NCBI GenBank assembly: GCA_964569575.1
Contig: CAZMTL010000005.1
Span: 9,053 to 73,052, forward strand
DNA length: 64,000 nt
Source of the DNA: an uncultured Gammaproteobacteria bacterium
GTDB taxonomy: Bacteria; Patescibacteriota; Patescibacteriia; UBA9934
Direction of reading: 5' to 3'
The translations under genes and the position numbers were made by a program. The notes beneath the pieces were generated by a model. That model had not been told where the DNA came from. It worked only from the letters and a program-made list of their open reading frames with translations, and did no database searches. The first letter of the stretch is position 1. The number at the start of each line of letters is the position of its first letter. This document shows, piece after piece, positions 1 through 26,124 of this stretch.

Positions 1-7
1 GAATAAA

Positions 8-38
8 AAGATCCGGCAACTTGCCGGATCTTTTTTTG
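8..38. terminator. Bidirectional rho-independent terminator: GATCCGGCAA/TTGCCGGATC stem flanked by an A-run and a T-run
   Basis: Perfect 10-bp inverted repeat with A5 upstream and T7 downstream, read directly from the sequence. Confidence 0.6.
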
Positions 39-112
39 TTCGATTGTTTCCACAGCTTGTCGATTTTAAATTGAGTAACTGTGATAAAATAGATGCATCA
101 CTAACCGTCATC

Positions 113-1915
113 ATGCTTGGACGACGTTTGTTTTATCGGATCGGATGCGCACTTACATTCATTGCTGCGGTAGCAATGGTCTTTTTTGTTCCCGATGTTT
201 TTGCGCAGACCGGAATTGAAGAAGTTGGGAATGCTGCGGGCATTAATACAGGTCGAGATTTATTTTCGATTATTGGGACGGTGATCAATGTCTTCTTTAG
301 CATTCTTGGAATCATCTTTTTGTTACTTGTGTTGTACGCGGGATTCCTTTGGATGACGGCTGCAGGTAATCCAGATTCGGTCGACAAGGCGAAGCGTGTG
401 TTGATTCAGGCGGTTGTTGGGCTGGTTATTACATTGAGTGCATTCGCGATTACGACGTTTATTTTAGGAGTGCTGAACCGAGCTGGATTGATTGGAGGAG
501 ATGGCAACGGTTTGAATAATGGCATTGAGTCGCTTTCTGGTTCGCTTGGTGCTGGCGCGATTCGTGATCACTATCCTCCTCGGTTTGGAATCGATATTCC
601 TCGTAACACGAAGATATTTGTTACGTTTAAGGAAGCGATGGATATTGCTTCCTTTATAGAAGGGTACAGTACAGCCGGTACGCCATTGGATGTTTCGGAC
701 GATTCTTTGGAAACAGCGTTGAATGTAGATAATATTCTTATTTATGTTACAGCGGATGGGGAGGGTGAGGCGCTCGAAACTAGTGAAGTGACAGTTGCAT
801 TTACCGAAGATTTGAAAACATTTGTCTTTGATCCTCCTGTGCTTGGTTCGCCGAATCAGGATGTGAATTATACGGTCTACTTGTCAGATTCGATTCGAAC
901 AGCGAATGGTGACGCTCCGATTAACTTGGGTGGCTATCAATGGACGTTTACGGTTGGAACTGAATTGGATGTGACTCCACCTGTCGTGACATCAGTGACG
1001 CCGTTTCCTGCTGGAACGTATGATCGTAACATTGTCGTTCAAGTTGATTTTTCGGAAGCGATTGATCCGACAGCTTCAACCGGAACGACGGCGCAAGGAT
1101 TTGAAAATATTCAAGCCCTTTCGCAGGGCACCCCTGTTGCTGGAAGTTACTTGATTAGTAATGGGTATCGAACGATTACATTCCAGAGTTCCTCGGTCTG
1201 CGGAACAAATTCGTGCGGTGAAACATTGTACTGCTTGCCGGGTAATGCGGATATCGAAACGATTGTGTATGCAGCTACTCCGGGAACCGAACCTCCTCAG
1301 GCCGTTTCGTTCCCGTATGACGGTATTGTTGATGTGGTTGGAAATTCGCTTGATGGAGACGGTGACTGGGGACAGGAGGGTGGAGAAGTTGGGGATGATT
1401 ACGCGTGGCAATTTTCGACCACAAATGACATTAATTTGTCTGCGCCCGAGATTGAAACTGTTTTACCAAGCGTACTGCAGGAAGATATTGCGCTCGATGC
1501 CCCTGTGGAAGCGATTTTTGGATGTAGCGAGAGTTCGAATCCAAATACCTGTGACTCTGTTTTGATGAGTTCGACTGTTTCTTCTGAATTTATCTCGCTG
1601 AGTTCCGGTTCGGATCACGAGCTGTGGTACAGGGTTACGCGCGAAAATTTGGATGCAGATGGCGTGCCGGTGAATTCGACAACGATTCCTTCGAAAACGC
1701 GCGTGGTTGTTCCGCATGGAATTTTCCTTGAATCGGTTGATGACGACAATCAGCTTTATCAGCTTACGATGACTGAACAGCTAAAAAATCAATACCAAAA
1801 TTGTTTTGCGCCGGCAGAAGGACCGAATGCTGTTGGTGGTCGGTGTGGTACGACCGAAAGTCAACCATATTGCTGCAATGGTATTGCTAGCGCTAATGAA
1901 TGTGCTCAGATCTAA
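113..1915 (+). CDS. Surface protein with N-terminal VirB2/TrbC-like two-TM pilin hairpin (LYAGFLWMTAAGNPDSVDKAKR) fused to SbsA-type Ig-like (Big_5) domains and a Cys-rich C-terminus
   Basis: ORF track 44..1915 trimmed to the first ATG (113) preceding a signal/TM segment; hydrophobic-loop-hydrophobic hairpin matching the T4SS pilin-like family abundant in CPR genomes; repeated 'P..g.t.v..n..i.v.Fse.id' motifs. Confidence 0.75.
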   Translation: MLGRRLFYRIGCALTFIAAVAMVFFVPDVFAQTGIEEVGNAAGINTGRDLFSIIGTVINVFFSILGIIFLLLVLYAGFLWMTAAGNPDSVDKAKRVLIQAVVGLVITLSAFAITTFILGVLNRAGLIGGDGNGLNNGIESLSGSLGAGAIRDHYPPRFGIDIPRNTKIFVTFKEAMDIASFIEGYSTAGTPLDVSDDSLETALNVDNILIYVTADGEGEALETSEVTVAFTEDLKTFVFDPPVLGSPNQDVNYTVYLSDSIRTANGDAPINLGGYQWTFTVGTELDVTPPVVTSVTPFPAGTYDRNIVVQVDFSEAIDPTASTGTTAQGFENIQALSQGTPVAGSYLISNGYRTITFQSSSVCGTNSCGETLYCLPGNADIETIVYAATPGTEPPQAVSFPYDGIVDVVGNSLDGDGDWGQEGGEVGDDYAWQFSTTNDINLSAPEIETVLPSVLQEDIALDAPVEAIFGCSESSNPNTCDSVLMSSTVSSEFISLSSGSDHELWYRVTRENLDADGVPVNSTTIPSKTRVVVPHGIFLESVDDDNQLYQLTMTEQLKNQYQNCFAPAEGPNAVGGRCGTTESQPYCCNGIASANECAQI

Positions 1916-1916
1916 C

Positions 1917-4900
1917 ATGTCTTCTTTCTTCCGCTCAATTTTTACCCTCTTATTTTCCGCCATCTTGTTTGGTGGATTTTGGGTTTTACCGGTGAATGCG
2001 CAGGTCGCTGATCAGGTGAATGATAGTTTGACGGTGGTGGGTGAGGGTTCGGGGCTTTCGAATCAGGATTTGCCTACAACGATTGCGAAGATTATTAATG
2101 TTGTTATTTCGTTGTCCGGAATTATTTTACTAGTGCTAGTGATTTATGCTGGCTTTTTGTGGATGACGGCGGCGGGTAATTCGGAGCAGGTCGATAAAGC
2201 GAAGCGCATTTTGGTGCAGGCGGTGATTGGATTGATTATTGTGTTTGCTTCGTTTGCTATTACTCAATTCGTGATTAGTTCGCTTTCGAACGCGACTGGA
2301 TTGCAGGACGGTGGTTCAGGTGGCGATGATGACGATGACGGAGGTGGACTTGGAGGAAGTGGTTCTACTTCGTTCACTGTTGCCGGTGTTGTGCCTCAGG
2401 GCGAAGTGTTGATTCGCAATATTGTCGTTCAAGCAACGTTTTCGCGAGTTGTGGATGAGTCGAGCGTGAATAACAACTCATTCCAAGTTGTGCGTGTTTC
2501 GGATCAGGAGGAAGTAGATGGAGATCTTATAGTGCTTGGAAATCGTATCAGTTTTACTCCAGATCAAACATGTCCAGATCCAAACGGTGACCGATTCTGT
2601 TTTGATGAAAATACCGCTTACGAAATTCGATTAACGGGTGATCTTGAGAGTACGAATGGACGTAATTTAACGACGTGTGCGAATGGGTGTTCGTATTTGT
2701 TTACCTCGGGTTCAGTTGTAGATGTAGAAAATCCGACGGTTCGATTTACCGTCCCAGCTGCGAATGAACGTGTTTCGGTGAACGAAGTTGTTCCGGTTCA
2801 AGTCTTTGCGACAGATGATTACGCGGTTGCTGGTTCGGATTTTGCCGTTGATCAAGCATTTTTTGATTCGGTAGGTGTTCCTGGAGTGCAGACGGAGGTG
2901 GCGATCGACAGTGCTTGGGATACAACGACTCCGGTCGCGACGGTCGAGAATACTTCTTATACCTTGCTTTCGCAGGTGCGTGATTTGGCTGGGAACACGG
3001 CTACGGCGCAGCGATCTGTTCGTGCAACGCCTGCGCATTGTTTTAATGGTGTTGTGGATAGTGGAGCAACTCCGCCGGAAGAGGGTCTGGATTGTGGTGG
3101 TGTTTGTGGGGCGTGTAATGGTGGGGCGTGTACCGAGAACGATCAGTGTAGTAGTGGGGCTTGTTTGAATGGAACGTGTCAGTCTATTCCGGTTATTTCG
3201 GATGTTTCGCCTCGTGATGGTGCGCCTGGTACGTATGTGACGGTGACTGGAAGTGGTTTTGAATCTGTTGCCGGAATTGTCTATTTTTCAGATGGATCCG
3301 GCGGGTTGGTTCCTTCTGCGGTTACAGCGTGTGGAGAAGGATGGTCTGCGACCGAGATTATTGTGGCAGTTCCTGAAGGAGCGGTTGATGGGCCACTTAC
3401 ATTGCAGACAAATAGTGGACTGGAAGATACGACGAATAATGATACAGGAGCGTTTATTGAAGATTTCGACGTGAATACGCTTGAACGACCGAGCATTTGT
3501 CGTCTTGCTCCAAATTCTTCCCCTTCTGGTTCTTTTGTTGATGTGATTGGTGTGAACTTTGGCACAACAGAAGCAGCTGTTCTTTTTGAAGGTGCGCAGA
3601 CTGTGGAGGCTCGAACATATGCTTCTTGGAGTGATTCCGAAATTGAGCTAACTGTTCCGTCTGTTCGTGTTGGCTTGCATGATGTGTTTGTGCGCGTAGG
3701 AGGAATTGAATCGAATAAGGTGCAGTTTAATGCGAGTGAGATTCTTTCTAATGCGCCTGTTCTTGCAACTGTTGCCCCTGCTTCTGGTGGAGCGGGTCAG
3801 TATGTGACGTTTTCTGGTTCAAATTTTGGAACGGCGACAGGATTGGTTTATTTTGAAAATGTTCTTACGGGAGTAAAGACAATTGCGGATACAAATTTTC
3901 CGGCTGTGTGCGCGGAAGGATTTTGGCGCGCAGATGAAGTGGTTGTGAAGGTGCCGGATGTGGACGAAGGTGCGTATTTCGTGTCTGTTGAGCGTGGAAC
4001 GGATGGGGCGGATTCGAATACCCTTGATTTCTTGGTAACGAATGCCGCGCCAACGCCAGGTATCTGTTCTGTTTCGCCCGCGAGGGGATTGGAGGGTGCG
4101 GACGTGGTTATTTCTGGTGAAAATTTTGGAAGTCAGCAAGGACGAGCCTTGTTTTATAATGAAGTTTCGGCCATCAATCCTGTTTGGGGTACAAGTCAAA
4201 TTAGTGTGACGGTTCCAGACGGAACATCTACTGGTCCACTGGTGATCGAGAATGCTGCTGGAGTTCAAGGAAATTCGGTATTGTTTGAACTTGGTGAGAC
4301 GGATGGAGATGTTGATGATGCTGGGGCTGTTGCGCAGTATTCTTGGACGTTTTCGACAGGACAGATTCCAATTGCGCCTTCGGTTGTGCAGGCATGTAAT
4401 GAAAATACCATTAGTGCCGTGCCGAATGCGGTGTTTTCTCAAAATGTGTGCGTGAACGCGTTGGTGGTTGCCGAATTTGATACATTAATGCGTCATCAAA
4501 CGATTACAAATCAAACGATTTTACTCGAACGTTGTGATAGCGCCTCTTGTGCAAGCGCATCTGCTGTTGGTGCGACCGTTTCTGCTTCTTCTTCGGCGGA
4601 TCGTACGGCTTTTTCTTTGCAGATTAATCAAGGAAATGGTCGGCTTTCGCCTTCTACCACGTATCGTGTCACGGTGAGTGATTTAGTACAGTCTCTTGAC
4701 GGCACGCCGATGAATCAACCTTTCTCTTGGACCTTTACCACATCTACTTCTTCAGAAGATTGTGATGTTGAAGAAGTTCGAGTTTCGCCTACACGTCAAA
4801 CTTTGTCAGTGCTCGATCAGCAGGCGGAGTACCGTGCATTGCCAGTTTTTGGTGATTGTCAGGTGTTGGTTGCGGAAGATTATTCGTGGCAGTGGTCAGT

Positions 4901-7900
4901 AGATGAATCAGTTGCGAGCATTGATGATACGTGTGACGAGATTTTGGACGGATCGTGCGCGACAGTATCTGCGTTAGCGGAAGGAGAGGCGGTTGTGACG
5001 GCAAGTTCGATTGATTCTGGCATTTCTGGAACGGGTGATTTGGTTGTTCAGTTTACGGATCCGTTTGTTCAAAGTTTTTGGCCAGCGTGTTCTCTTGCCT
5101 GTGTAAACGCGCAGGTTGGGGCTTCGTTTAACATTCCTGTACTCGCGGCGACAGTTGAGCGAAGTGGAGCGGTGGCGCTGTATGAATGTTCAAACGAATT
5201 TTGTACGGACTTAACGCTTGTCAGCGAAAATGCGGATTGTGTAGATGGAAGTGATGGTTGTGAAGGGTTTACTGTTCGAGTTAATCAGCTTCTGCGTACG
5301 TCTACGTATTACCGTGTCGTTGTTTCGGGAGATGTGCAGTCGCAAAGCGGTGTTCCGCTTACGCGATTGAATTACGGAGAAGATTATTCTTGGACATTTT
5401 TGACGCGCGCGGATGCGCAAGAATGTGCCGTTGCTCGAGTTGATCTTTCACCGGGTAATGCACAGGTGGAGGTTGTTGGAGCGACTCAGCGATTTACTGC
5501 TACGCCATTTGGTGAAGCGGATGCTTGTTCTGTTGCGGGACAGCGTTTAAATGCGTACGGATACAGTTGGGACTGGACCAATCCGATTGATTCCAGCTCT
5601 CAGTCTGACGACAATATCGCTTCGTGGGTAACGCTTGGTGGTGAATTGTTTGATGCAAATCCTTCTTCTATTCCTGCCGGTTGCAGTAGCGCTTGTACGG
5701 CAGTTGGAAGCTTCCCATTGTTTGCTATTTGTGGAAATAACGTTGTTGAAACGGGTGAGGATTGTGATGACGGAAACACGACTGGAGGCGATGGATGTTC
5801 TTCGATGTGTTTAAACGAGGGTGTTGTTGGTGGTGTTTGCGGAAATACCGTTTTGGATGCAGGTGAAGAATGTGATGATGGAAATTCAACGAATGGTGAC
5901 GGATGTTCGGATATGTGTTTGCGTGAAGGGTCGCAGGCAAGTGGTTTAACGTGTGGTGATGGAATTGTTTCGCGAGATACGCGTTATGGAGGAGAGGATT
6001 GTGATGATGGAAACAAGAAGGGTGGAGACGGCTGTTCGGCTGTTTGTTTGAACGAAGGATCGCAGAGCATTTCGACCGTTGCAGCTGCTTGTGGGAATGG
6101 TGTTGTGGAGACTCCGTACGAAACTTGCGATGACGGAAACGGTGTAAGCGGTGACGGCTGTTCGAATCGTTGTTTGCGTGAAGGTATTTCGGCGACCGTT
6201 GCGACTGGATTTATTTGTGGGAATGGTGTGACTGAACGATTGCCAAGCGGCGGAGGAGAGGATTGTGATGGTGGCGAAGGATGTTCGGTGACGTGTCGAT
6301 TTGAAGGTTCGAGTACCGACTACTCTACTCCTTCAGTGTGTGGAGATGGAATTGCTGGAATCGGTGAGTTGGCAATGTGTGAAGCTGGATATTCTGGTGA
6401 TGGATTTGATGACCCTGTTCAGCTTGCGGTGATTGACGGTGATGCGGCTCAGTTTGTGGACGAAAGCGGTTTAGCTACGCAGTCTATCGAGGTAACTCTT
6501 GCGCCTGTTACGGCAACGGCGAATTTGCAGCTTTCTTGTTCGGCGAATAGTGATGCGGATTGTCCTGTTGGATTTGGAGCGGATCAAAATGGCTGCTGCA
6601 GCGAACGCCCGACTATTACCGCGTTCCCTAATGGAGCAAATGCTTGTTTAAACTCGGCTATTTACGTTACGTCGAATCGTGAAATGGATTTGGCTAGTTT
6701 TGATGACGCAGCGTATGTTGTGTACGAAGGGGCAAGTTGTCCTCAGAATCATACAACGCTAGCACTTTATCGCGCGGTGCATAAGAATTGGTTTGCTCGT
6801 GCTTGGATTTCAATTCAAACGTTCTTTGTTCGGGGGGCGAATGCTCAAGTTTCGGGTGATTGTGTTGTTCCGGTTGAGCGATTTGTGCAATCGAAGGTGA
6901 GTGATACCGAATATCGTATTTCGTTTATTACGAATACGCTTCTTGAAGCTGGTGCTCCGTACGCGATTGTGTTAGAGGCTGGAGCCGAAGGTGTGACTAC
7001 GTCCACAGGAGTAGCGCTTGCGAATGAAGTGCGTCAGAGTTTTTCTACAGGAAGTGAAATTTGTCGGTTGAGTCAGGTGGAGATTGTGGATGAAACGGGT
7101 GTTGTTCCTGGATTATTCCGCTCGCTTAGCGAAACGCACGACATGATTGCATTGCCTTATGCTGTATTGAATGGTGTGCGAAGCGAAATTCAGCCGGTTC
7201 AAGGTGTCTATTCTTGGAACTGGTTGCCATGGCAAGAAGATTCTGGCGCGACGCTATTCTCTGTGCAAAATCAAACGACTACTCCAGACCGAGCGAGTGT
7301 TTCGACGCTTGGAGAAAATGGAGAAGCGACTTTAGTGGCCCAGGCTCAGATTATTGAAAATTCGGCTCCGACGGGTGTTGTGGTTGATGACACGCTGCGA
7401 TTACGCGCGTTGCTTTGTGAAAATCCGTGGCCATCTGCTGATTTGTTCCCGTTCGAAGATTCGCAGGCTGGGTTTGATCGTGGCATTCCAAATCTTCTTC
7501 AAACACCGGACTGGATGAACTTTGAAACGTATTACTGTCGAGATACGTCGACAGAAGGTGCGTTATTGCCTTCGTTGAACATTGTTTCTTCGACAGACAC
7601 GACAAGCGCAGGTGTGATTAAAGAATACTTCTTTGCTGTTGGAGCTTCGCGTGATGTGATTGGTATTCGTGTGGTAGCGAATCCTCAATATTTGAGCCCG
7701 TCTGATTGGTACACAGCGCAAGGATTTACTGGAACGGCTTCTGAAGAGCAGGTGGATGGATTTGAAGCGGTTCGAAGCGGTCGAACTATTTATGTGGCTG
7801 CACCGAATGTGTCGAATGTAGGGACGGCGATGTATTCAAATATTTACGCTATTTCGTACAACGAAGATGCTTCTGCTCAAACACAACAAATTTTTGAGCA

Positions 7901-10900
7901 ATTACTCGACAACTGGAATTTCGCTATTGCGCTCGAAGATGTTCGATTGTGTCAGGAGGGTGGAGTGTATACTTCTACCGTGTGTTCTGCTGATGTTGAG
8001 TGTTCAGCGACTGCTGGAGCCGTTTGTGGTTCGGAGAAGGCAAAAATTACTCGTGATACGAAGCGGTTGGCAGATATTACAACGATTAGTCGTCAGTTGA
8101 GTGCTTATGCGGTGCAGAATCGGTTCTGTTCTCAGACGACCGGTTTGAGTTGTCTTTCGAATGCGGATTGTCCTGGAACGGAATTGTGTGTTGATACCTA
8201 CCCACAGTTAGACGCGGGAACATTTGTGCGTTCGATTGATTCGAGTGCTTGGCCAAGTTGGAACGAAGTTTTGGGAACGCAAATTGGAGCCATTCCTTCC
8301 GATCCGTTAAATCGCTACAACGCTTGTGGTGAAGGAACTGCGTACGGTGATCACGATGCGGCCACTTGTGTAAATCAAACAACCGGCGTGTATTTGTGTC
8401 CAGAGAATTCGTATGCATACCATTACCGATCTGTTGGCGCGAATGCATTCGAGCTTAGCGCGGAACTTGAGTATGTAGGTACAGGTGCCCAGGCTTGGGT
8501 GAATGCGATTGATCCGGTAGCAGGTGATCAGCGTACGATTCGTGTTGGAAACGCGAATCCGAATTCGGGAGCAGGATTTTCTTCTGCTCAAGCGTTTTGT
8601 TCGAATGCGAGCTACGGTGGGTCGGATATTTGTGGTGATGGAATTGTTGGTCCGAATGAAGTGTGTGAAGTTGGCCAGGCTGGAGCGATGAATACGTGTG
8701 ATTTGAACGGGGATGGCGCTGCTGATTCGGTGCGTCCTACGGTCTGTAATGCAAGTTGTACTGGATTTGTGGAAACGGCCGGAGCAGATGCGGACGTATG
8801 TGCGTCATTTGCTTGTGGTAATGGAGTTATTGAACAGGGTGAAGCATGTGACGATGGCGCGTTGAATGGTCAGTATGGTTACTGTAGTTCGACGTGTTCA
8901 GGTGCTGGATTTTTCTGTGGAGATGGTCGAATTGCTGGCGGTGAATCGTGCGATTGCGGTCTTGATGGAAGTGGGGTGAGTGCGAGTGGTGGCGCGTGCA
9001 GCTCGCCAAATGGTGTGTACGGTTCAAATTTGAATAATACGTGTGCATGGGATTGTGGTGGTTCTGCGGCATTCTGCGGAGATTCGATTATTCAGGCAGG
9101 CGAACAATGTGATGGAAATGTTGAAACATGGGCAGGTGCTGTGTGTCGAACAGGTGCGAATATGGGTGATGCGTGTACAACGGATGCGGATTGTGGTGGC
9201 GGAGTTTGTGGAGGGTCGCGTCCAACGAATGCGTGTCCGACAAGTCGCGTGTGTTTAGATGGTCCGCAAGAAGGGTATGGATGTACGGCAGATGTCCAGT
9301 GTCCAGGAAGTACGTGCTCTGTGTTTACTGTTCAGACGGCGCGAACCAAGACTTGTGCTGATAACGGATTGGCAGGTGATAGCTGTTCGTGGGTTGGCGG
9401 AGATACGTTTATTGGTAAGGATTGTCGTGCGGCGGTTTCGTGCGGAAATGGCGTGGTTGATGCAGGAGAACAGTGTGATGATGGAAATGATGTAAATACA
9501 GATGCGTGTACAAATAGTTGTATCGCAAACGTGTGTGGAGATGGAATCGTTCAGGCTGGTGTTGAGCAGTGTGATTTGGGTACTCAAAACGGTCAGCAGT
9601 GTTCTTCGGCTTATCAGTCTTCGTGTAACTATTGTTCACCGACTTGTACATTATTGGCTTCTTCTGGGGCATTTTGTGGCGACGGTGTGCGCAACGGTGG
9701 TGAATTCTGTGATGCAGGAGATTTGCAGTATTACTGGTATTCCGCGTCTACGCGTACCGTTCGAAATGATGTCGCGACGTGTTTGGCGACTCAGGTTGGT
9801 CAAACGGTTACTGTTGCCGGTGTTCAATACGCGTGTACAAATATTGGAGCGTGTAATGGTGGAGTGAATAATGCGGATTTGTGTTCTTCGAATGCTCAGT
9901 GTGGTGGTGGAGGTTCGTGTGTGTTCCCGCAATGTGATTTGTCTTGTGGAAGTTCGTGTCCGTTAACGCTTACACCCGCTTCAGTGCAGTTCCTCGATAA
10001 TCAAGTTGGCGCAGTTCGTTCAGGTACGGTTGATTTGTTGAGCGCTTCTGAAACTTTGGATGCGGTTCTTCTGGGCGATCCAAATGCAGCAACGGCATAT
10101 ATTCCGGCTTGTCGAGTGGCAGATGATTTCATTATCGATATTTCTGGAACGAATCGAAGTTATCCGGATGTGGAGGTGATGTTCGTGCTGGATGAATCTC
10201 GCTCTATGACTTCGTCGCTTGGCGGTCAGCCTCGATTACAAGTCTTAAATGATGCGGTGAACGATGCAATCGATGCGTTATTCGACGGTTACTTGGGCCG
10301 TTCAGCGACGATGAGTATTGGTCTTTCTAGCTTTGGAGGAAGTCACTTTGTTCCAAATACAAATCGTACAGAGGTTCGGGATATGTTGGTTCTTTCTACG
10401 CGCGATGCCGCTTCTCGTAATCGTGCAGAGGTGAAGGCTGCGGCAAATCTTGTCTTAACCCAGGCGATTATGAATCCCGAAGGAACTCCTCTTTACGAAG
10501 CTATTCGTGATGCTCGAGACGGATTCACCGATGATCCGGACAGTCACAAAATTATCGTCATCTTCAGTGACGGGAATGTATATAACCCACAGGCTGAATA
10601 TGCATCGTTCCAGTCACATCTTGCAACTCCGTATGATCAGGGTGGTACGATGGACGCGCCAAAATATATGGCAGAGGTCTCGGATTTGATTGATCTGTAT
10701 AAGAGCCCAGCGGGTGGTGATATTGAAGTCTTTACCGCTATTTTGTCGAGTGGAGCTTGTAATGCTCAGCAAATGCAGCGTTGGTCTAGCATGACTTGTA
10801 CGGCTCAGCCTCGAGGATGTGCGCCTATTTCTGCGGAAGGAAATCATTCCTGCGTTGTTCCTCCAAATGGTGTGAATTATGCCTACCAAGCTTCTACCGC

Positions 10901-11150
10901 GGAAGAGTTGCGTGACATGTATGAATCGATTGTGAATTCAATCTTGAATATCACTGTTTCACTTACACATCAGGGAGAAACGATGTCAGTGACTCTGCCT
11001 GCGGGGTCGAATACACAGTTGGCGATTCCGGGAGCGTTTGCGTGTAATGGATTAACTGAACAGTCGATGACAATTAAAGCGTCCTTTGTTGATACGGGTG
11101 AAGGAACGGTTCAGTTGAGTGGTGGAGAAATTGATATGTGTCGTCCTTAA
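1917..11150 (+). CDS. Giant (about 3077 aa) pilin-domain fusion adhesin. Domain order: signal/TM, VirB2/TrbC-like hairpin (VIYAGFLWMTAAGNSEQVDKAKR), Gly/Asp linker, Big_5 Ig-like domains, IPT/TIG repeats (about nt 3190-4300), a Cys-rich repeat array (5731-6300), a second Cys-rich region (8620-9980), and a C-terminal von Willebrand factor A domain with MIDAS DESRS (about 10160-10760)
   Basis: ORF track 1806..11150; ATG at 1917 directly precedes the signal peptide MSSFFRSIFTLLFSAILFGGFWVLPVNAQ, 1 nt after the upstream stop; motifs read from the translation (GxYVTVTGSGF repeats, CGNGVVExGEDCDDGNxxxGDGCSxxC repeats, DESRSM...IIVIFSDGN). Confidence 0.85.
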   Translation: MSSFFRSIFTLLFSAILFGGFWVLPVNAQVADQVNDSLTVVGEGSGLSNQDLPTTIAKIINVVISLSGIILLVLVIYAGFLWMTAAGNSEQVDKAKRILVQAVIGLIIVFASFAITQFVISSLSNATGLQDGGSGGDDDDDGGGLGGSGSTSFTVAGVVPQGEVLIRNIVVQATFSRVVDESSVNNNSFQVVRVSDQEEVDGDLIVLGNRISFTPDQTCPDPNGDRFCFDENTAYEIRLTGDLESTNGRNLTTCANGCSYLFTSGSVVDVENPTVRFTVPAANERVSVNEVVPVQVFATDDYAVAGSDFAVDQAFFDSVGVPGVQTEVAIDSAWDTTTPVATVENTSYTLLSQVRDLAGNTATAQRSVRATPAHCFNGVVDSGATPPEEGLDCGGVCGACNGGACTENDQCSSGACLNGTCQSIPVISDVSPRDGAPGTYVTVTGSGFESVAGIVYFSDGSGGLVPSAVTACGEGWSATEIIVAVPEGAVDGPLTLQTNSGLEDTTNNDTGAFIEDFDVNTLERPSICRLAPNSSPSGSFVDVIGVNFGTTEAAVLFEGAQTVEARTYASWSDSEIELTVPSVRVGLHDVFVRVGGIESNKVQFNASEILSNAPVLATVAPASGGAGQYVTFSGSNFGTATGLVYFENVLTGVKTIADTNFPAVCAEGFWRADEVVVKVPDVDEGAYFVSVERGTDGADSNTLDFLVTNAAPTPGICSVSPARGLEGADVVISGENFGSQQGRALFYNEVSAINPVWGTSQISVTVPDGTSTGPLVIENAAGVQGNSVLFELGETDGDVDDAGAVAQYSWTFSTGQIPIAPSVVQACNENTISAVPNAVFSQNVCVNALVVAEFDTLMRHQTITNQTILLERCDSASCASASAVGATVSASSSADRTAFSLQINQGNGRLSPSTTYRVTVSDLVQSLDGTPMNQPFSWTFTTSTSSEDCDVEEVRVSPTRQTLSVLDQQAEYRALPVFGDCQVLVAEDYSWQWSVDESVASIDDTCDEILDGSCATVSALAEGEAVVTASSIDSGISGTGDLVVQFTDPFVQSFWPACSLACVNAQVGASFNIPVLAATVERSGAVALYECSNEFCTDLTLVSENADCVDGSDGCEGFTVRVNQLLRTSTYYRVVVSGDVQSQSGVPLTRLNYGEDYSWTFLTRADAQECAVARVDLSPGNAQVEVVGATQRFTATPFGEADACSVAGQRLNAYGYSWDWTNPIDSSSQSDDNIASWVTLGGELFDANPSSIPAGCSSACTAVGSFPLFAICGNNVVETGEDCDDGNTTGGDGCSSMCLNEGVVGGVCGNTVLDAGEECDDGNSTNGDGCSDMCLREGSQASGLTCGDGIVSRDTRYGGEDCDDGNKKGGDGCSAVCLNEGSQSISTVAAACGNGVVETPYETCDDGNGVSGDGCSNRCLREGISATVATGFICGNGVTERLPSGGGEDCDGGEGCSVTCRFEGSSTDYSTPSVCGDGIAGIGELAMCEAGYSGDGFDDPVQLAVIDGDAAQFVDESGLATQSIEVTLAPVTATANLQLSCSANSDADCPVGFGADQNGCCSERPTITAFPNGANACLNSAIYVTSNREMDLASFDDAAYVVYEGASCPQNHTTLALYRAVHKNWFARAWISIQTFFVRGANAQVSGDCVVPVERFVQSKVSDTEYRISFITNTLLEAGAPYAIVLEAGAEGVTTSTGVALANEVRQSFSTGSEICRLSQVEIVDETGVVPGLFRSLSETHDMIALPYAVLNGVRSEIQPVQGVYSWNWLPWQEDSGATLFSVQNQTTTPDRASVSTLGENGEATLVAQAQIIENSAPTGVVVDDTLRLRALLCENPWPSADLFPFEDSQAGFDRGIPNLLQTPDWMNFETYYCRDTSTEGALLPSLNIVSSTDTTSAGVIKEYFFAVGASRDVIGIRVVANPQYLSPSDWYTAQGFTGTASEEQVDGFEAVRSGRTIYVAAPNVSNVGTAMYSNIYAISYNEDASAQTQQIFEQLLDNWNFAIALEDVRLCQEGGVYTSTVCSADVECSATAGAVCGSEKAKITRDTKRLADITTISRQLSAYAVQNRFCSQTTGLSCLSNADCPGTELCVDTYPQLDAGTFVRSIDSSAWPSWNEVLGTQIGAIPSDPLNRYNACGEGTAYGDHDAATCVNQTTGVYLCPENSYAYHYRSVGANAFELSAELEYVGTGAQAWVNAIDPVAGDQRTIRVGNANPNSGAGFSSAQAFCSNASYGGSDICGDGIVGPNEVCEVGQAGAMNTCDLNGDGAADSVRPTVCNASCTGFVETAGADADVCASFACGNGVIEQGEACDDGALNGQYGYCSSTCSGAGFFCGDGRIAGGESCDCGLDGSGVSASGGACSSPNGVYGSNLNNTCAWDCGGSAAFCGDSIIQAGEQCDGNVETWAGAVCRTGANMGDACTTDADCGGGVCGGSRPTNACPTSRVCLDGPQEGYGCTADVQCPGSTCSVFTVQTARTKTCADNGLAGDSCSWVGGDTFIGKDCRAAVSCGNGVVDAGEQCDDGNDVNTDACTNSCIANVCGDGIVQAGVEQCDLGTQNGQQCSSAYQSSCNYCSPTCTLLASSGAFCGDGVRNGGEFCDAGDLQYYWYSASTRTVRNDVATCLATQVGQTVTVAGVQYACTNIGACNGGVNNADLCSSNAQCGGGGSCVFPQCDLSCGSSCPLTLTPASVQFLDNQVGAVRSGTVDLLSASETLDAVLLGDPNAATAYIPACRVADDFIIDISGTNRSYPDVEVMFVLDESRSMTSSLGGQPRLQVLNDAVNDAIDALFDGYLGRSATMSIGLSSFGGSHFVPNTNRTEVRDMLVLSTRDAASRNRAEVKAAANLVLTQAIMNPEGTPLYEAIRDARDGFTDDPDSHKIIVIFSDGNVYNPQAEYASFQSHLATPYDQGGTMDAPKYMAEVSDLIDLYKSPAGGDIEVFTAILSSGACNAQQMQRWSSMTCTAQPRGCAPISAEGNHSCVVPPNGVNYAYQASTAEELRDMYESIVNSILNITVSLTHQGETMSVTLPAGSNTQLAIPGAFACNGLTEQSMTIKASFVDTGEGTVQLSGGEIDMCRP
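5731..6300 (+). repeat. In-frame tandem DNA repeats (about 96-108 nt period, 5-6 copies) encoding myxo-type cysteine-rich repeats (C-G-N/D-G-x-V-E-x-G-E-x-C-D-D-G-N-x3-G-D-G-C-S-x2-C)
   Basis: Recurring 'gaggattgtgatgatggaaa...ggtgacggctgttcg...tgtttg' units visible at nucleotide level. Confidence 0.8.
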
Positions 11151-11151
11151 T

Positions 11152-12036
11152 ATGCAAGATTCGCAAGAACAACTACAGCCGGTGGAGTGGGTTGAGGTAA
11201 ATCCAAATCCTCAACCCAAGCCCAAGGCTCCAAAAGAACTTTCACCTGCGCTCCGTATTGTTATTTTTGTTGTTGGATTGATTGTGTGTTTGGGATTGGT
11301 TGCGCTATTGGTTGTTTCGATCGTGCGAACGGTTTTTGAAACAGATAATCGACAAACACAAGAGCAGATGCGCCAAGATGTTGCCGAGGCGGTGTTGATT
11401 TGTGATGACGCAGAAGATCGTGAGGGATGCGTGGAGCAGGTGAGTGTGCAGCTTGCGCAAGAACGAGGAGACGTTTCGTATTGTTTTTTGCTCGACCAGG
11501 GATTGCGAGACGACTGTGTTTTGAATGCTGCTATCTCGCTGAATGATCGCGGGATGTGTTCGCAGATGCAGGATGAAGCTCGTCGAGAACGGTGTGAAGA
11601 CGGATTATTTGTAAGTGCATTCGGATCGGATGCGCCGATCGAGATGTGTGATCGCTATCATGCTTCTGAACTGCGCGATAGTTGTATTGCTGTTCGAGTT
11701 CAGAATGCATTGCTTGCGGGCGAGTGTCCGGAACAAGCGACCGAAAGTGATTGCGCTGACTACGAGGTGATTCGCCGTGCGATTGCTGCTCGAGATGAAT
11801 CGATGTGTTTTGCGTTAGTGACGGATTCGTCGGAAGAAATGTGTCTTGGTCTTGTGAGTGAAGCTGTGTATCAATTTGAATTATCTGCCGAAGAAGGGAC
11901 TGTGGATACGGATGGGGATGGATTAACTGACGCCGAAGAGCGTTTACTTGGAACGAATCCGGCGTTGGTTGATACTGATGGTGATGGATTTAGTGATGGC
12001 GAAGAAGTTCGGAATGGCTTCGATCCTCTAAATTAG
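11152..12036 (+). CDS. Single-pass membrane protein with paired-Cys repeats and C-terminal thrombospondin type-3-like Ca-binding repeats (DTDGDGLTDAEE...DTDGDGFSDGEE)
   Basis: ORF track 11119..12036 trimmed to the ATG at 11152 (1 nt after the giant gene's stop); TM helix ALRIVIFVVGLIVCLGLVALLVVSIV; D-x-D-x-D-G-x-x-D-x-x-E motifs. Confidence 0.75.
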   Translation: MQDSQEQLQPVEWVEVNPNPQPKPKAPKELSPALRIVIFVVGLIVCLGLVALLVVSIVRTVFETDNRQTQEQMRQDVAEAVLICDDAEDREGCVEQVSVQLAQERGDVSYCFLLDQGLRDDCVLNAAISLNDRGMCSQMQDEARRERCEDGLFVSAFGSDAPIEMCDRYHASELRDSCIAVRVQNALLAGECPEQATESDCADYEVIRRAIAARDESMCFALVTDSSEEMCLGLVSEAVYQFELSAEEGTVDTDGDGLTDAEERLLGTNPALVDTDGDGFSDGEEVRNGFDPLN

Positions 12037-12080
12037 GTATCATATGAATAAATAGGATAGCTTCAATTACTTACGTTTCT

Positions 12081-12839
12081 ATGTTTGACGATCAACAATC
12101 ACAACCAACTCCAAAACCCCCAACGCCTCAGCAGCCTGTCGAGGATATGTTTGCTTCAACGGATGCTGTTGCTTCGGCTCCGGCGATGACCGCTTCGGTA
12201 GAGCAGGGCGGTGCCCCGATGAATTTACCAACCGCTCCTCCGGTAGAAGAACGTCAGATGCCTGTTCAGGCTCCAGTTACGCCTATGGCTCCTATGCCTG
12301 CGCCGGTTATGCCTTCGGACCGCATGAAGCCTCAGCCGACGATGGCGCCACCTTCGGCTGCTCGAACTCGACCTCCGGGTTCACGCGGGGGCGCGTTTAA
12401 AGTGATTTTTATTATTCTTGTTTCGCTCATTATTATTGCTATTGCTCTTTTCCTTGCCTACGCATTGGTGGTGGCGCCGAAGAGCGGTGACGTTGTGGAT
12501 TCGCTCGAGGATGATTCGTTGGTTGAAGATGATGTTGTCGTCGAGGACGAACCTGAGGTTCCGGTTATTGAAGAGGACCCAGTTGTAGTAGCGCCAATCG
12601 ATACAGACGGAGATGGATTAACAGATGCGGAAGAAGCTGCGGCGGGCACGTCGCCGTTGCGAGCGGATACGGATAGTGATGGATTGGGTGATCGAGAAGA
12701 AGTGAAAGTGTACGGAACAGACCCACTTGACGCAGATACGGATAAGGATGGGTATACGGATGGTGAAGAGGTGAGTTCGGGATATAACCCAAATGGACCA
12801 GGAAAGCTATTTGAAGTTCCGCAGGATATTAAAGAATAG
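12081..12839 (+). CDS. Pro-rich single-pass membrane protein with C-terminal TSP3-like Ca-binding repeats (paralog of the previous gene)
   Basis: TM helix FKVIFIILVSLIIIAIALFLAYALVVA; DTDGDGLTDAEE / DTDSDGLGDREE / DTDKDGYTDGEE. Confidence 0.75.
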   Translation: MFDDQQSQPTPKPPTPQQPVEDMFASTDAVASAPAMTASVEQGGAPMNLPTAPPVEERQMPVQAPVTPMAPMPAPVMPSDRMKPQPTMAPPSAARTRPPGSRGGAFKVIFIILVSLIIIAIALFLAYALVVAPKSGDVVDSLEDDSLVEDDVVVEDEPEVPVIEEDPVVVAPIDTDGDGLTDAEEAAAGTSPLRADTDSDGLGDREEVKVYGTDPLDADTDKDGYTDGEEVSSGYNPNGPGKLFEVPQDIKE

Positions 12840-12844
12840 TTGGT

Positions 12845-13813
12845 ATGGCACGTCGGAAGGAGGAGCGAAATTCGGCAAAGGTAACACAAAAGGAGTCAGA
12901 TTCTTTTGATTCTGTTGTATTTAAAGTGATGCCGAAGGAATTTTTAGGTGAAGGCGTTGAGCGTGTAGCGCCAGTTGAGGCGAAGTCTGTCCCGAAGCCT
13001 GTTCCTGCGCCTGTTGTTGTACCGCCCGCGCCAGTGCAGCCGACGATCACGAAGCCGGTTGCTATAAAGAAAAACAAGCGACGAGGTCCTGTTTTGTTAA
13101 TTGTATTCGGGCTACTCTTTCTGCTTGGACTTTCTGCGGCAGCGGTAGTATTACTTACTATTCTTTCGGAAGAAGATCCTGAGCCAATTGTGCCGGTTGT
13201 AGAAGACCCTGTTGTTATTCCTCCTGTGATTGAAGATCCTGTCGAGGAAGAGCCTTCGATTACGCAGGGAATCGATACGGATAGTGATGGTTTAACGGAT
13301 AGGGAAGAGGCATTGTACGGTACGGATGCACGCAATCCTGATACGGATGGTGATACATTTTTGGATGGAAATGAAGTGTTTCATCGGTATGATCCGCTTG
13401 GGTTTGCTCCATCTACGTTGCTTGATACGGGAAGTGTGGTTGAATATCGATCGGAAGTTGGCGGATACGCGCTTACCTATCCTCGCCAATGGAGCCTGAC
13501 GAGCACGGAAGGTGCTGGTATTACTTTGCGGGCGCAGACGGGTGCTACGATTGGGGTGATTGATTATGGTAAATCAGCCGAACAAGCGTTTTCTGCCTGG
13601 CTGGGTGAGGTCTATCCACAGATAGTATCGACGGACTTAAAGCAGGGGCTGACAAAGGCGGGATATGTTAGTTACACTACTGACGACCAGCGAACGGCTT
13701 TTCTGGTATTTGATTCGCGTGTTGTTGTGTTTACGTATACGCTTGGGAATAGTTTGGTGATAGACTATCTACAGACGTTCCAGATGATGGTGAATAGCTT
13801 CTTTTTAGAATAA
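12845..13813 (+). CDS. Single-pass membrane protein with central TSP3-like Ca-binding repeats and a C-terminal globular domain (third paralog)
   Basis: TM helix VLLIVFGLLFLLGLSAAAVVLLTIL; DTDSDGLTDREE...DTDGDTFLDGNE. Confidence 0.75.
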   Translation: MARRKEERNSAKVTQKESDSFDSVVFKVMPKEFLGEGVERVAPVEAKSVPKPVPAPVVVPPAPVQPTITKPVAIKKNKRRGPVLLIVFGLLFLLGLSAAAVVLLTILSEEDPEPIVPVVEDPVVIPPVIEDPVEEEPSITQGIDTDSDGLTDREEALYGTDARNPDTDGDTFLDGNEVFHRYDPLGFAPSTLLDTGSVVEYRSEVGGYALTYPRQWSLTSTEGAGITLRAQTGATIGVIDYGKSAEQAFSAWLGEVYPQIVSTDLKQGLTKAGYVSYTTDDQRTAFLVFDSRVVVFTYTLGNSLVIDYLQTFQMMVNSFFLE

Positions 13814-24370: not shown

Positions 24371-24480
24371 ACGAAAAATAAAGTAATATTGGCTCAATTA
24401 TAACACGGACGCACGGATTATTTTTTGTTTGGAAGTGTGGGTGTTGATAGGTTTTGTGGGGAGGGTTGAAAATGAAAAAA

Positions 24481-24505
24481 CCACAGCCGAAGCTGTGATT
24501 TTTTC
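24481..24505. terminator. Bidirectional terminator CACAGC-CGAA-GCTGTG flanked by A/T runs, just 3' of tRNA-Asp
   Basis: aaaaaaccacagccgaagctgtgattttttc. Confidence 0.6.
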
Positions 24506-24581
24506 TGGCGGGCTGGACGGGACTCGAACCCGCAACTTCCGCCGTGACAGGGCGGTGCTCTAACCATTGAACTACCAGCCC
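24506..24581 (-). tRNA. tRNA-Asp (anticodon GUC), CCA encoded
   Basis: Minus-strand read GGGCUGG-UA-GUUC-AAUGGUUA-GAGC-A-CCGCC-CU-GUC-AC-GGCGG-AAGUU-GCGGG-UUCGAGU-CCCGU-CCAGCCC-G-CCA folds as a cloverleaf. Confidence 0.9.
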
Positions 24582-24668
24582 ATTTGTGTGACACAGACGC
24601 GTGTCAGTAAATGGTGGCGAAATGGTATCAAATCATCTTTTTTTTGGCAAGAAACGGTTATAAACAAG

Positions 24669-24703
24669 AGAGCCCCCTTTCAGCGAGTGCTGTAGGGGGC
24701 TCG
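24669..24703 (-). terminator. GC-rich hairpin (9-bp stem GAGCCCCCT/AGGGGGCTC) 3' of the island gene 24729..25964
   Basis: Perfect inverted repeat with a 16-nt loop. Confidence 0.5.
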
Positions 24704-24728
24704 AGAGAACTGGCGCAGTGGCGCTGGT

Positions 24729-25964: not shown

Positions 25965-26124
25965 GCTGTCTCCAGATGCTGATTGGTGAAAGATCGAGGT
26001 TGAATATTTCAAACATAGATGTCTGAACTGACGGATAGTACAGGAAATACCAAGAATGTCAATAAATACAAAGCGATCCCCAGCGCCGAAGCGGTGGGGA
26101 TCTCGATTTCGCCTGGCGCTGCGC

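What the first reader, a model, noticed from the sequence alone, without database searches (positions are those of the whole stretch)
113..11150. Tandem genes fusing a VirB2/TrbC-like pilin hairpin to large adhesin-type ectodomains (about 600 aa and about 3077 aa)
Both genes open with a signal/TM segment followed by a hydrophobic-loop-hydrophobic hairpin carrying the near-identical motif LYAGFLWMTAAGN(P/S)(D/E)xVDKAKR. This is the signature of the small T4SS-pilin-like proteins common in CPR genomes. Normally those proteins are about 100 aa. Here the hairpin is followed by hundreds to thousands of residues of extracellular-type domains: Big_5 Ig-like, IPT/TIG, myxo-type Cys repeats, VWA. A pilin-like membrane anchor fused to an adhesin stalk, in tandem duplicate, is to my knowledge not a described architecture. 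It could be a pilus-tip or cell-surface attachment organelle of an episymbiont. The second gene starts 1 nt after the first stops, which suggests co-translation.
Basis: partly seen in the sequence, partly recalled or inferred. Interest (0 to 1): 0.85.

Follow-up and report, generated by a model that had tools for sequence, protein, structure and literature searches.

The report
Pilin-hairpin proteins carrying giant adhesin stalks
Two back-to-back genes of an uncultured Candidatus Uhrbacteria bacterium each join a small membrane hairpin, of the kind that builds type IV secretion pili, to a large outward-facing stalk of adhesion-type domains, and this pair is conserved across the lineage but, as far as I could find, undescribed in papers.

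Summary
Gene 1 (113-1915, 600 aa) and gene 2 (1917-11150, 3077 aa) each start with a cleavable signal peptide. A two-helix hairpin follows, and it scores above Pfam's cut-off for PF18895 (T4SS_pilin, the VirB2-like pilins of Patescibacteria). After a Gly-rich linker come only extracellular-type domains: Ig-like, TIG, Cys-rich repeats and a terminal VWA domain with a conserved metal-binding (MIDAS) site.

This is not an artefact or a one-off. At least 631 homologues of gene 1 and about 90 giant homologues of gene 2 exist. In 77 of 79 related loci scored, mostly titled Candidatus Uhrbacteria, the next hairpin-bearing gene starts within -4 to +21 nt of the first gene's stop. The chromosomal site is fixed: yqeY upstream; membrane proteins, most with TSP3 repeats, then ybeY, dgkA, ftsA and ftsZ downstream. 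The 64-kb window holds no T4SS machinery.

Best reading: these are "modular" VirB2-like pilins. The hairpin is the membrane anchor or carrier and the ectodomain is an adhesive fibre. Whether they stay in the membrane or enter a pilus is unresolved.

The sequences are already public, named "pilin" or "Ig-like domain-containing protein". I found no paper describing the architecture. The closest concept is the modular type IV pilin (PilB). I rate it a new variant of a known kind, of moderate to high interest.

The parts
6..40 (.). Terminator-like perfect palindrome followed by a T run (AAAAAGATCCGGCAAcTTGCCGGATCTTTTTTT). It marks the end of the upstream unit, so the module starts fresh after it.
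   Evidence: Read directly from the sequence. The scan tool did not list it because the loop is shorter than 3 nt.
113..1915 (+). Gene 1 (p1): 600-aa modular pilin-like protein.
   Evidence: ORF and translation. Pfam PF18895 plus Big_5. At least 631 homologues of about 600 aa with the same two domains. AF2 model with mean pLDDT 86.9.
113..205 (+). p1 signal peptide (aa 1-31), with predicted SPase I cleavage at VFA|Q32.
   Evidence: Hydrophobic segment 12-30. A31 is invariant in 69 homologues. AF2 helix 2-24. The cleavage site is a prediction.
260..463 (+). p1 VirB2-like pilin hairpin (aa 50-117): TM1, loop AAGNPDSVDKAKR, TM2.
   Evidence: PF18895 at 35.6 bits against a cut-off of 26.6. AF2 helices 50-82 and 87-123. 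NF045849 (Mycoplasma ICE pilin-like protein) at 35.7 bits, below its cut-off of 40.
470..532 (+). p1 flexible Gly-rich linker, about aa 120-140 (the AF2 helix 2 runs to residue 123, so the first residues overlap it).
   Evidence: pLDDT below 50 at residues 120-135. Sequence GLIGGDGNGLNNG.
545..1912 (+). p1 ectodomain (aa 145-600): array of Ig-like beta domains ending in a small Cys-rich C-terminal knob.
   Evidence: AF2 pLDDT mostly above 90. Foldseek matches the Ig-like arrays of LdtMt2, the S-layer proteins SbsC, SbsB and EA1, and titin. Cysteines C564, C578, C587, C588 and C597 are invariant.
1917..11150 (+). Gene 2 (p2): 3077-aa giant modular pilin-like protein.
   Evidence: ORF and translation. 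Pfam. About 90 giant homologues carrying PF18895. Collinear conservation across 39 giant proteins, the window's own included.
1917..2000 (+). p2 signal peptide (aa 1-28), with predicted cleavage at VNA|Q29.
   Evidence: Hydrophobic segment 8-26. The cleavage site is a prediction.
2067..2273 (+). p2 VirB2-like pilin hairpin (aa 51-119).
   Evidence: PF18895 at 39-40.7 bits. PF04956 TrbC at E=2e-4, below its cut-off. hhalign against annotated VirB2/TrbC gives probability 38.5% over 68 columns, against at most 2.5% in 21 controls.
2289..2396 (+). p2 Gly/Asp-rich flexible linker (aa about 125-160).
   Evidence: Sequence GLQDGGSGGDDDDDGGGLGGSGS.
2418..4742 (+). p2 proximal stalk: Big_5, Big_7, a Cys-rich insert, four TIG domains, then Big_5 (aa about 168-942).
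   Evidence: Pfam.
5725..6416 (+). p2 first block of Cys-rich acidic repeats (DUF4215 / TIGR02232, aa about 1270-1500).
   Evidence: Pfam DUF4215 at 70.9 bits on the segment. TIGR02232 at 106.7 bits.
6324..8816 (+). p2 central region with no Pfam match (aa 1470-2300): further Ig-like domains plus a PsbP/Mog1/LpqN-like alpha/beta domain. No enzyme fold was found.
8817..10016 (+). p2 second Cys-rich repeat region (aa about 2300-2700).
   Evidence: DUF4215 and TIGR02232 hits. 119 of 136 cysteines are conserved at 90% or more.
10176..10574 (+). p2 distal VWA domain with a complete MIDAS motif (D2759-x-S2761-x-S2763, T2857, D2885).
   Evidence: VWA_2 at 36.4 bits. The MIDAS residues are conserved in 33-39 of 39 giant proteins, although this is the least conserved region overall.
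11152..13813 (+). Three tightly packed genes for single-pass membrane proteins with extracellular TSP3-type Ca-binding repeats (11152-12036, 12081-12839, 12845-13813). Likely the same transcription unit.
   Evidence: Pfam TSP3_bac. Translations show a disordered N-terminus, one transmembrane helix and DxDxDG repeats. Three genes of similar size hold the same position in the closer relatives, and some of them hit TSP3_bac.

Best explanation
Genes 1 and 2 encode 'modular' VirB2-like pilins of a Candidatus Uhrbacteria bacterium (Patescibacteria, class ABY1). In each, a pilin-type membrane hairpin carries an adhesive ectodomain.

Proposed steps, each marked as shown or inferred:
1. The two genes, probably with the three TSP3 genes, ybeY and dgkA, are transcribed together. 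They are translationally coupled: the spacing is 1 nt here and -4 to +21 nt in 77 of 79 relatives. Spacing is shown; coupling is inferred.
2. Each precursor is exported by Sec and cut by signal peptidase I after VFA or VNA (predicted).
3. The hairpin sits in the cytoplasmic membrane with its basic loop (VDKAKR) facing the cytoplasm and both ends outside. This is the topology of VirB2 and TraA propilins. It is inferred from the positive-inside rule and family membership.
4. A flexible Gly-rich linker leads to the ectodomain. In p1 this is a short array of Ig-like domains. In p2 it is a disulfide-rich stalk of some 25-30 domains that would reach roughly 100 nm if extended. It ends in a VWA head whose MIDAS site is conserved while the rest of the head varies. 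Domain content is shown; the length is an estimate.
5. The VWA head binds a ligand on another cell or surface through its metal ion. This is inferred by analogy with integrin I domains, RrgA and PilB.
6. The hairpin is as conserved as in free-standing short pilins, so it probably contacts the same partners: other hairpins, starting with p1 and p2 themselves, or the pilin-handling machinery. This is inferred.

My leaning is that the pair forms a membrane-rooted surface fibre complex rather than the shaft of a pilus.
For: - Family membership of the hairpin: PF18895 above the cut-off in both proteins and in 53 of 53 aligned hairpins. The profile comparison with annotated VirB2/TrbC spans the whole mature pilin and exceeds all 21 controls. 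There is also a sub-threshold hit to the Mycoplasma ICE pilin-like family NF045849.
- Topology elements: a signal peptide plus two transmembrane segments and none further downstream; an AF2 helical hairpin followed by a disordered linker.
- A real and old module: at least 631 p1 homologues and about 90 p2 homologues; adjacency in all loci long enough to show it, and conserved synteny.
- Hairpin under pilin-like constraint: the consensus is nearly the same in short, 600-aa and giant classes. The hairpin is no less conserved than the ectodomain.
- Against shaft-forming pilins and for an anchor: no VirB4, VirB6 or VirD4 in 64 kb, and a core chromosomal location beside ftsA and ftsZ.
Against: - No experiment or expression data exist for any member.
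- Nothing here shows where the proteins sit or what they bind.
- A plain N-terminal signal-anchor would suffice to tether an ectodomain. The retention of a full, highly conserved pilin hairpin, and of a short pilin gene between the two genes in divergent lineages (L005, L061, L068, L070, L071), points towards pilus-type assembly rather than a passive anchor.
- The link to canonical VirB2 is modest. PF04956 hits lie below the cut-off and are about as frequent as hits to unrelated membrane families. hhalign probability is 38.5%.
- The ectodomains are more conserved (about 40-50% identity, collinear) than is typical of host-specific adhesins.
Confidence: 0.55

Rival explanations
1. The two proteins are true pilus subunits. 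Their hairpins are extracted from the membrane by a T4SS encoded elsewhere in the genome and co-polymerise with short PF18895 pilins. The ectodomains are then displayed at the tip, if incorporated first, or sparsely along the shaft. This would be the T4SS counterpart of modular type IV pilins.
For: - The hairpin consensus cannot be told apart from that of short pilins.
- A short pilin gene lies between p1 and p2 in divergent lineages.
- Pilin arrays elsewhere include members of 424 and 496 aa.
- Class ABY1, including some Uhrbacteria, carries VirB4.
- In solved VirB2- and TraA-type pili both termini face outward (my own knowledge), so a C-terminal passenger is compatible with the lattice.
- Flexible linkers follow the hairpin.
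- Modular type IV pilins set a precedent.
Against: - No T4SS gene lies within 64 kb. The related short-pilin arrays examined also lack an identifiable VirB4 within 10 kb, although one is followed by an unannotated 803-aa product that could not be read.
- No pilus made of PF18895 proteins has yet been shown in any Patescibacterium; the reviews only raise the possibility.
- A 3000-aa passenger on a subunit of about 70 aa excludes dense packing.
- Some Uhrbacteria assemblies are listed without VirB4, although incompleteness may explain that.
Confidence: 0.27
2. They are structural components of the cell envelope, such as an S-layer-like or wall-spanning scaffold or spacer, possibly linked to division-site architecture. 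They would not be adhesins for another cell.
For: - The locus sits at a fixed core position next to ybeY, dgkA, ftsA and ftsZ in all relatives examined.
- The whole 3000 aa is collinear and fairly well conserved.
- The best structural matches include the S-layer proteins SbsC, SbsB, EA1 and Sap.
- The co-located TSP3 proteins bind Ca, as many envelope lattices do.
Against: - The S-layer matches are generic Ig-like domain similarities with TM-scores of 0.1-0.25.
- A distal VWA with conserved MIDAS on an otherwise variable head is a ligand-binding signature.
- Gene order is widely conserved in these small genomes, so adjacency to ftsA and ftsZ is weak evidence.
Confidence: 0.13
3. The N-terminal hairpin is merely a generic hydrophobic signal-anchor that resembles pilins by composition, or the long ORFs are assembly or gene-calling artefacts.
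For: Hairpin sequences also give weak hits to unrelated membrane families such as Cyt_bd_oxida_II and DctQ.
Against: - PF18895 exceeds its curated cut-off in every hairpin tested.
- The specific motif YAGFLWMTAxG...KAK is shared with thousands of short pilins. There are 36,247 representatives at E<=1e-3.
- Reversed and shuffled controls fail.
- The same gene pair occurs in the 80 independent related loci fetched, wherever the contig is long enough to show it.
Confidence: 0.03

Closest known systems
VirB2-like pilins of Patescibacteria (Pfam PF18895 T4SS_pilin). This includes the pilin arrays essential in Southlakia epibionticum (PMC10633639; PMC12102498; PMC12857230).
   Same: - The same hairpin domain, scoring above the Pfam cut-off.
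- A signal peptide, two helices and a basic loop.
- Occurrence as adjacent paralogous genes.
- The same phylum.
   Different: - The described pilins are small, about 100-170 aa, and often sit next to virB4.
- Here the hairpin is followed by 480 and 2950 residues of ectodomain.
- The pair lies in a core chromosomal site with no T4SS gene within 64 kb.
- The survey paper reports no adhesins in its Patescibacteria set.
Modular type IV pilins, e.g. PilB of Streptococcus sanguinis: a pilin module plus a vWA module with MIDAS (PMC8179133).
   Same: - The design principle: an N-terminal pilin 'carrier' joined by a linker to an 'effector' module.
- A VWA domain with a functional-looking MIDAS as the adhesive end.
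- A monoderm host.
   Different: - The carrier is unrelated. Type IV pilins have a class III signal peptide and a single alpha-1 helix, and are assembled by T4P machinery. Here the signal is SPase-I type and the carrier is a VirB2-like two-helix hairpin.
- The passengers here are far larger. The largest modular type IV pilin cited there is 860 aa.
Canonical conjugative pilins VirB2, TrbC and TraA (Pfam PF04956).
   Same: - A signal peptide ending in AxA|Q.
- Two hydrophobic helices and a WM-containing end of helix 1.
- The profile alignment covers the whole mature pilin.
   Different: - Only remote similarity: below the PF04956 cut-off, with hhalign probability 38.5%.
- Those pilins are about 70-120 aa, sometimes cyclised or acetylated, never carry large C-terminal domains (my own knowledge), and are encoded within T4SS operons.
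Giant fibre adhesins with a distal ligand-binding region (LapA, MpIBP and SiiE type RTX adhesins) and the VWA-bearing tip adhesins of sortase pili (RrgA).
   Same: - A long stalk of Ig-like repeats that projects a ligand-binding end containing VWA and MIDAS away from the cell.
- Ca-binding or disulfide stabilisation.
   Different: - No RTX repeats and no type 1 secretion signal: neither Pfam nor NCBIfam reported any RTX-type family in the whole proteins or in overlapping segments.
- No LPXTG sortase signal.
- Anchoring is through an N-terminal pilin hairpin in the cytoplasmic membrane.

Membership tests
PF18895 T4SS_pilin (Patescibacteria VirB2-like pilins) | Match to the family HMM above the curated gathering score. 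| tested here: met
   p1 scores 32.3-35.6 bits and p2 34.0-40.7 bits against a cut-off of 26.6. All 53 aligned hairpins from relatives match.
PF18895 T4SS_pilin (Patescibacteria VirB2-like pilins) | A Sec signal peptide followed by two transmembrane helices joined by a short basic loop. | tested here: met
   Three hydrophobic segments and none after residue 160. AF2 helices 50-82 and 87-123. Loop sequence AAGNxxxVDKAKR.
PF18895 T4SS_pilin (Patescibacteria VirB2-like pilins) | Small protein of about 100-170 aa consisting of little more than the hairpin. | tested here: not met
   The proteins are 600 and 3077 aa. The nearest hairpin relatives found with the N-terminus alone are 100-240 aa.
PF18895 T4SS_pilin (Patescibacteria VirB2-like pilins) | Encoded in or near a T4SS cluster (virB4, virB6, virB3). 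| tested here: not met
   None of the window's larger ORFs scanned against Pfam hits a T4SS family. Even for short pilins the literature finds adjacency to virB4 in only 1,135 of 1,948 assemblies.
PF18895 T4SS_pilin (Patescibacteria VirB2-like pilins) | Polymerises into an extracellular pilus. | not testable with these tools
   No multimer modelling or experiment was available. This has not been shown for any family member either.
PF04956 TrbC/VirB2 conjugative pilins | Sequence homology to canonical VirB2/TrbC. | tested here: inconclusive
   PF04956 gives E=2e-4 and 21.9 bits against a cut-off of 27.9. It is hit by 11 of 53 hairpins, about as often as unrelated transmembrane families. hhalign against six annotated VirB2/TrbC proteins gives probability 38.5% over 68 columns, and controls reach at most 2.5%. 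No PDB pilin was found by sequence.
Modular type IV pilins (PilB type) | A class III signal peptide and a type IV pilin alpha-1 helix (IPR012902). | tested here: not met
   Pfam reports no type IV pilin family for the N-terminus. The sequence shows an AxA-type signal peptide and a two-helix hairpin.
Modular type IV pilins (PilB type) | A pilin module, a linker, then a non-pilin effector module such as vWA with MIDAS. | tested here: met
   The order is hairpin, Gly-rich linker, ectodomain. The VWA MIDAS is conserved. This is an analogy of design, not homology.
VWA (von Willebrand A) adhesive domains | A complete MIDAS motif: DxSxS, T and D. | tested here: met
   D2759 is conserved in 39 of 39 giant proteins, S2761 in 38, S2763 in 33 (plus 4 Thr), T2857 in 34 and D2885 in 37.
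Sortase-anchored Gram-positive adhesins and pilins | A C-terminal LPXTG sorting signal with a hydrophobic tail. | tested here: not met
   No LPxT[GAS] motif and no C-terminal hydrophobic segment in either protein.
RTX-type giant adhesins (LapA, MpIBP) | RTX nonapeptide repeats and a C-terminal type 1 secretion signal. | tested here: not met
   Pfam and NCBIfam scans of the whole proteins and overlapping segments report no RTX-type family. Both proteins carry N-terminal Sec signals.

The most novel reading that the evidence does not exclude
The VirB2-like hairpin of Patescibacteria is a general carrier module. On this reading p1 and p2 are extracted by a T4SS encoded elsewhere and co-assemble with short pilins into a conjugative-type pilus on a monoderm cell. 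The pilus would be tipped or decorated by a roughly 100-nm fibre with a MIDAS head. These would be the first 'modular T4SS pilins' and a new kind of attachment organelle. The concatenated multi-hairpin polyproteins would then be covalent pilus segments.
Probability: 0.25. Interest if true: 0.85.

Novelty: new variant of a known kind. Interest (0 to 1): 0.6.

Why it matters
VirB2-like pilin arrays are essential for the epibiotic growth of the one genetically tractable Patescibacterium. Their role is an open question, and reviews only speculate about a pilus. The main survey of Patescibacteria T4SS found no adhesins.

A lineage-wide, conserved pair in which the same pilin hairpin is covalently joined to Ig-like stalks and a MIDAS-VWA head yields a concrete, testable idea: the hairpin is a carrier or anchor for surface-displayed functions.

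It also gives well-defined targets for proteomics, cryo-ET and binding assays in Uhrbacteria, namely the VWA head and the hairpin pair. And it extends the 'modular pilin' principle from type IV pili to a structurally unrelated pilin class.

Tried and rejected
- Artefact or chance was rejected. The pair recurs in the 80 related loci fetched, and the hairpins match at E about 1e-27.
- A true start downstream of the hairpin was rejected. Every homologue keeps the hairpin at residue about 40.
- Searching the window for T4SS machinery found nothing in four further Pfam batches covering the rest of the window, or among the genes next to the module.
- A sequence search of the PDB with a hairpin profile returned only spurious repeat hits to designed 'Pizza' propellers and no pilin.
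- A PDB sequence search with the p2 central region returned nothing.
- An exact look-up of the window's own p1 for upstream context found it not on record. Context came from relatives instead.
It was repeated with 25 sequences.
- Literature searches for the fused architecture found no description.
- Promoter and terminator scans were at or below shuffle expectation and are not used as evidence.
Full report
**Observation.** The two ORFs are as described. Gene 1 runs from the ATG at 113 to the TAA at 1913-1915 (600 aa). Gene 2 runs from the ATG at 1917 to 11150 (3077 aa), one base after the stop of gene 1. A perfect palindrome followed by a T run at 6-40 closes the upstream unit.

Each protein opens with three hydrophobic segments and has none further downstream. 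The first ends in VFA|Q (p1) or VNA|Q (p2), a typical signal-peptidase I site. The other two flank the loop AAGN(P/S)(D/E)xVDKAKR.

The N-termini are 47-55% identical (E about 1e-27), and no third copy occurs in the window. Beyond the hairpin the two proteins show no detectable similarity, so 'tandem duplicate' applies to the hairpin module only.

**Domain content.**
- Pfam places both hairpins in PF18895 (T4SS_pilin) above the curated cut-off: 32-41 bits against 26.6.
- Pfam also finds Big_5 in p1, and Big_5, Big_7, four TIG stretches, DUF4215 repeats and VWA_2 in p2.
- NCBIfam adds TIGR02232 (myxo-type Cys repeat, 106.7 bits). It also gives a sub-threshold match of both hairpins to NF045849, the pilin-like conjugal transfer protein of Mycoplasma ICEs.
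- That last hit fits the published view that the Patescibacteria T4SS derives from monoderm conjugation systems.

**Link to canonical VirB2.** This link is weaker.
- PF04956 is hit below its cut-off, by 11 of 53 hairpins. That is about as often as unrelated membrane families are hit.
- I checked a VirB2 sequence against annotated plasmid genes and built a six-member VirB2/TrbC alignment.
- hhalign against 53 hairpins gave 38.5% probability over 68 columns spanning the whole mature pilin, including the shared W-M end of helix 1.
- A reversed control and 20 column-shuffled controls reached at most 2.5% and 28 columns.
- A PDB sequence search found no pilin.

**Structure.**
- AF2 on p1 with 69 homologues (mean pLDDT 86.9) gives a signal-peptide helix, a hairpin (helices 50-82 and 87-123) and a disordered linker (120-135). 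A confident array of beta domains follows.
- That array matches the Ig-like arrays of LdtMt2, the S-layer proteins SbsC, SbsB and EA1, and titin.

**Conservation along p2.**
- An alignment of 39 giant proteins (38 homologues plus the window's own) is collinear over the full length.
- 119 of 136 cysteines are conserved.
- The least conserved stretch is the distal VWA domain, yet its MIDAS residues are kept in 33-39 of 39 sequences.
- A variable head with an invariant metal site is the expected pattern for a ligand-binding tip.

**Distribution.**
- The full p1 query returned at least 631 homologues. The 120 listed are 566-650 aa, and 116 of them carry both PF13205 and PF18895.
- The p2 query returned about 90 giant proteins of 1.7-5.3 kaa with PF18895 plus Big_5, TIG, DUF4215 and VWA.
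- Source names are 'Ig-like domain-containing protein', 'IPT/TIG domain-containing protein', 'cysteine-rich repeat protein' or simply 'pilin', mostly from Candidatus Uhrbacteria.
- A scan of one genome per species found 150 stretches encoding a relative.
- In the 80 loci fetched, every one long enough shows the 600-aa gene followed directly by a hairpin-bearing gene, usually a giant one.
- In 77 of 79 loci that next gene starts -4 to +21 nt from the p1 stop.
- In five divergent lineages a short pilin of 129-189 aa sits between the two genes.

**Genomic setting.**
- Synteny is fixed in the four relatives examined. Upstream lie lepB and hisS (three of the four), a small S21-like gene (called in two) and yqeY. 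The order is then p1, p2 and two to three small membrane proteins, most with TSP3 repeats, then ybeY, dgkA, ftsA, ftsZ (not called in the most divergent), nrdR and pyk.
- The rest of the window is ordinary core chromosome: ATP synthase, glycolysis, ribosomal proteins and mreB.
- No T4SS component is present in the window.
- Class ABY1, which includes some Uhrbacteria, does carry VirB4 elsewhere in the genome.

**The wider hairpin family.**
- An exhaustive search with the p2 hairpin found 36,247 cluster representatives at E<=1e-3.
- Of the 150 best, 67 carry a single hairpin. Among these, 34 are under 200 aa, 9 are 200-399 aa, 12 are 400-999 aa and 12 are 1000 aa or more.
- The other 83 carry 2-14 tandem hairpins in one polypeptide.
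- C-terminal extension of this hairpin is therefore a common theme, at least among relatives close to the query. The window's pair is the Uhrbacteria-wide instance.

**Interpretation.** The hairpin consensus is almost the same in the short, 600-aa and giant classes. It is no less conserved than the ectodomains. It is therefore under pilin-type constraint, not just selection for hydrophobicity.

With the basic loop inside, both ends face outward, as in VirB2 and TraA propilins (established knowledge). A C-terminal passenger is then extracellular.

I conclude that the two proteins are modular VirB2-like pilins: a hairpin carrier or anchor, a flexible linker and an adhesive ectodomain. p2 would form a fibre of roughly 100 nm tipped by a MIDAS-VWA head. 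p1 would be a shorter Ig-like partner made in step with it.

Whether the hairpins remain in the membrane or are built into a pilus by a distant T4SS cannot be settled here. I lean towards the membrane. The reasons are the absence of local T4SS genes, the core chromosomal location and the steric bulk of the passengers. The intercalated short pilin genes and the intact pilin motif keep the pilus model alive at about one chance in four.

**Comparison with the literature.**
- Small VirB2-like pilins and their arrays in Patescibacteria are described, and they are essential in Southlakia.
- The survey of 3,035 genomes states that no adhesins were detected.
- Five literature searches found no account of pilin-hairpin fusions to large ectodomains.
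- The nearest concept is the modular type IV pilin. PilB of S. sanguinis joins a pilin module to a vWA module with a MIDAS, and more than 1,200 such proteins are known. That carrier module is unrelated.

**Verdict.** This is a new variant of a known kind. The sequences are already public, but the architecture and its lineage-wide conservation appear undescribed.

Noticed in passing
Not in the window: proteins P0364 (1147 aa), P0355 (1775 aa), P0372, P0343 and others: Among the 150 best relatives of the hairpin, 83 carry 2-14 tandem PF18895-like hairpins in a single polypeptide. P0364 has one signal peptide, 11 hairpins with a period of about 93 aa, short Cys-containing outer linkers and a small C-terminal beta domain. 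These look like covalently concatenated pilin arrays. I found no description of them.
   Followed up: partly
window 11152-13813 (+): Three tightly packed genes encode single-pass membrane proteins with disordered, Pro-rich cytoplasmic N-termini and extracellular TSP3-type Ca-binding repeats. Three genes of similar size hold the same position after the giant gene in the closer relatives (some hit TSP3_bac), so they may belong to the same surface module.
   Followed up: partly
L005 9607-9996; also L061, L068, L070 and L071: In divergent lineages (p1 36-42% identical to the window's) a short pilin gene of 129-189 aa is inserted between the 600-aa gene and the giant gene. The window has no such gene.
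   Followed up: partly
window 1878-1917: The public gene call for the giant protein (P0241, 3090 aa) starts at the ATG at 1878, inside gene 1. Comparison with relatives favours the ATG at 1917 (3077 aa).
   Followed up: yes
window 37874-42913 (-): A 1679-aa ORF has no Pfam hit at all. It lies between lexA and an M23 peptidase gene.
   Followed up: no
window 22382-26267 (-): A 671-aa protein combines a C-type lectin domain with Big_5. Next to it is a 512-aa ORF without Pfam hits, in the most GC-rich part of the window (55% against about 47%). This may be another surface-protein locus.
   Followed up: no
L092 3041-5364; L093/L094 7402-15205: The closest short relatives of the hairpin sit in arrays of 5-12 consecutive pilin genes that include double-hairpin proteins (239 aa) and members of 424-496 aa. 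No VirB4 was identified within 10 kb of these arrays; in the contig seen without DNA the array is followed by an 803-aa product with no Pfam hit.
   Followed up: partly
loci L008-L084: Many species-representative records that carry this Uhrbacteria-type locus are titled 'uncultured Gammaproteobacteria bacterium'. This is evidently a placeholder or a mislabel in those third-party assemblies.
   Followed up: no
window 1-64000: GC skew is positive in every 2-kb window (0.05-0.32). It is lowest where genes lie on the minus strand (38-51 kb), and the cumulative skew rises steadily with no turning point in the window.
   Followed up: no
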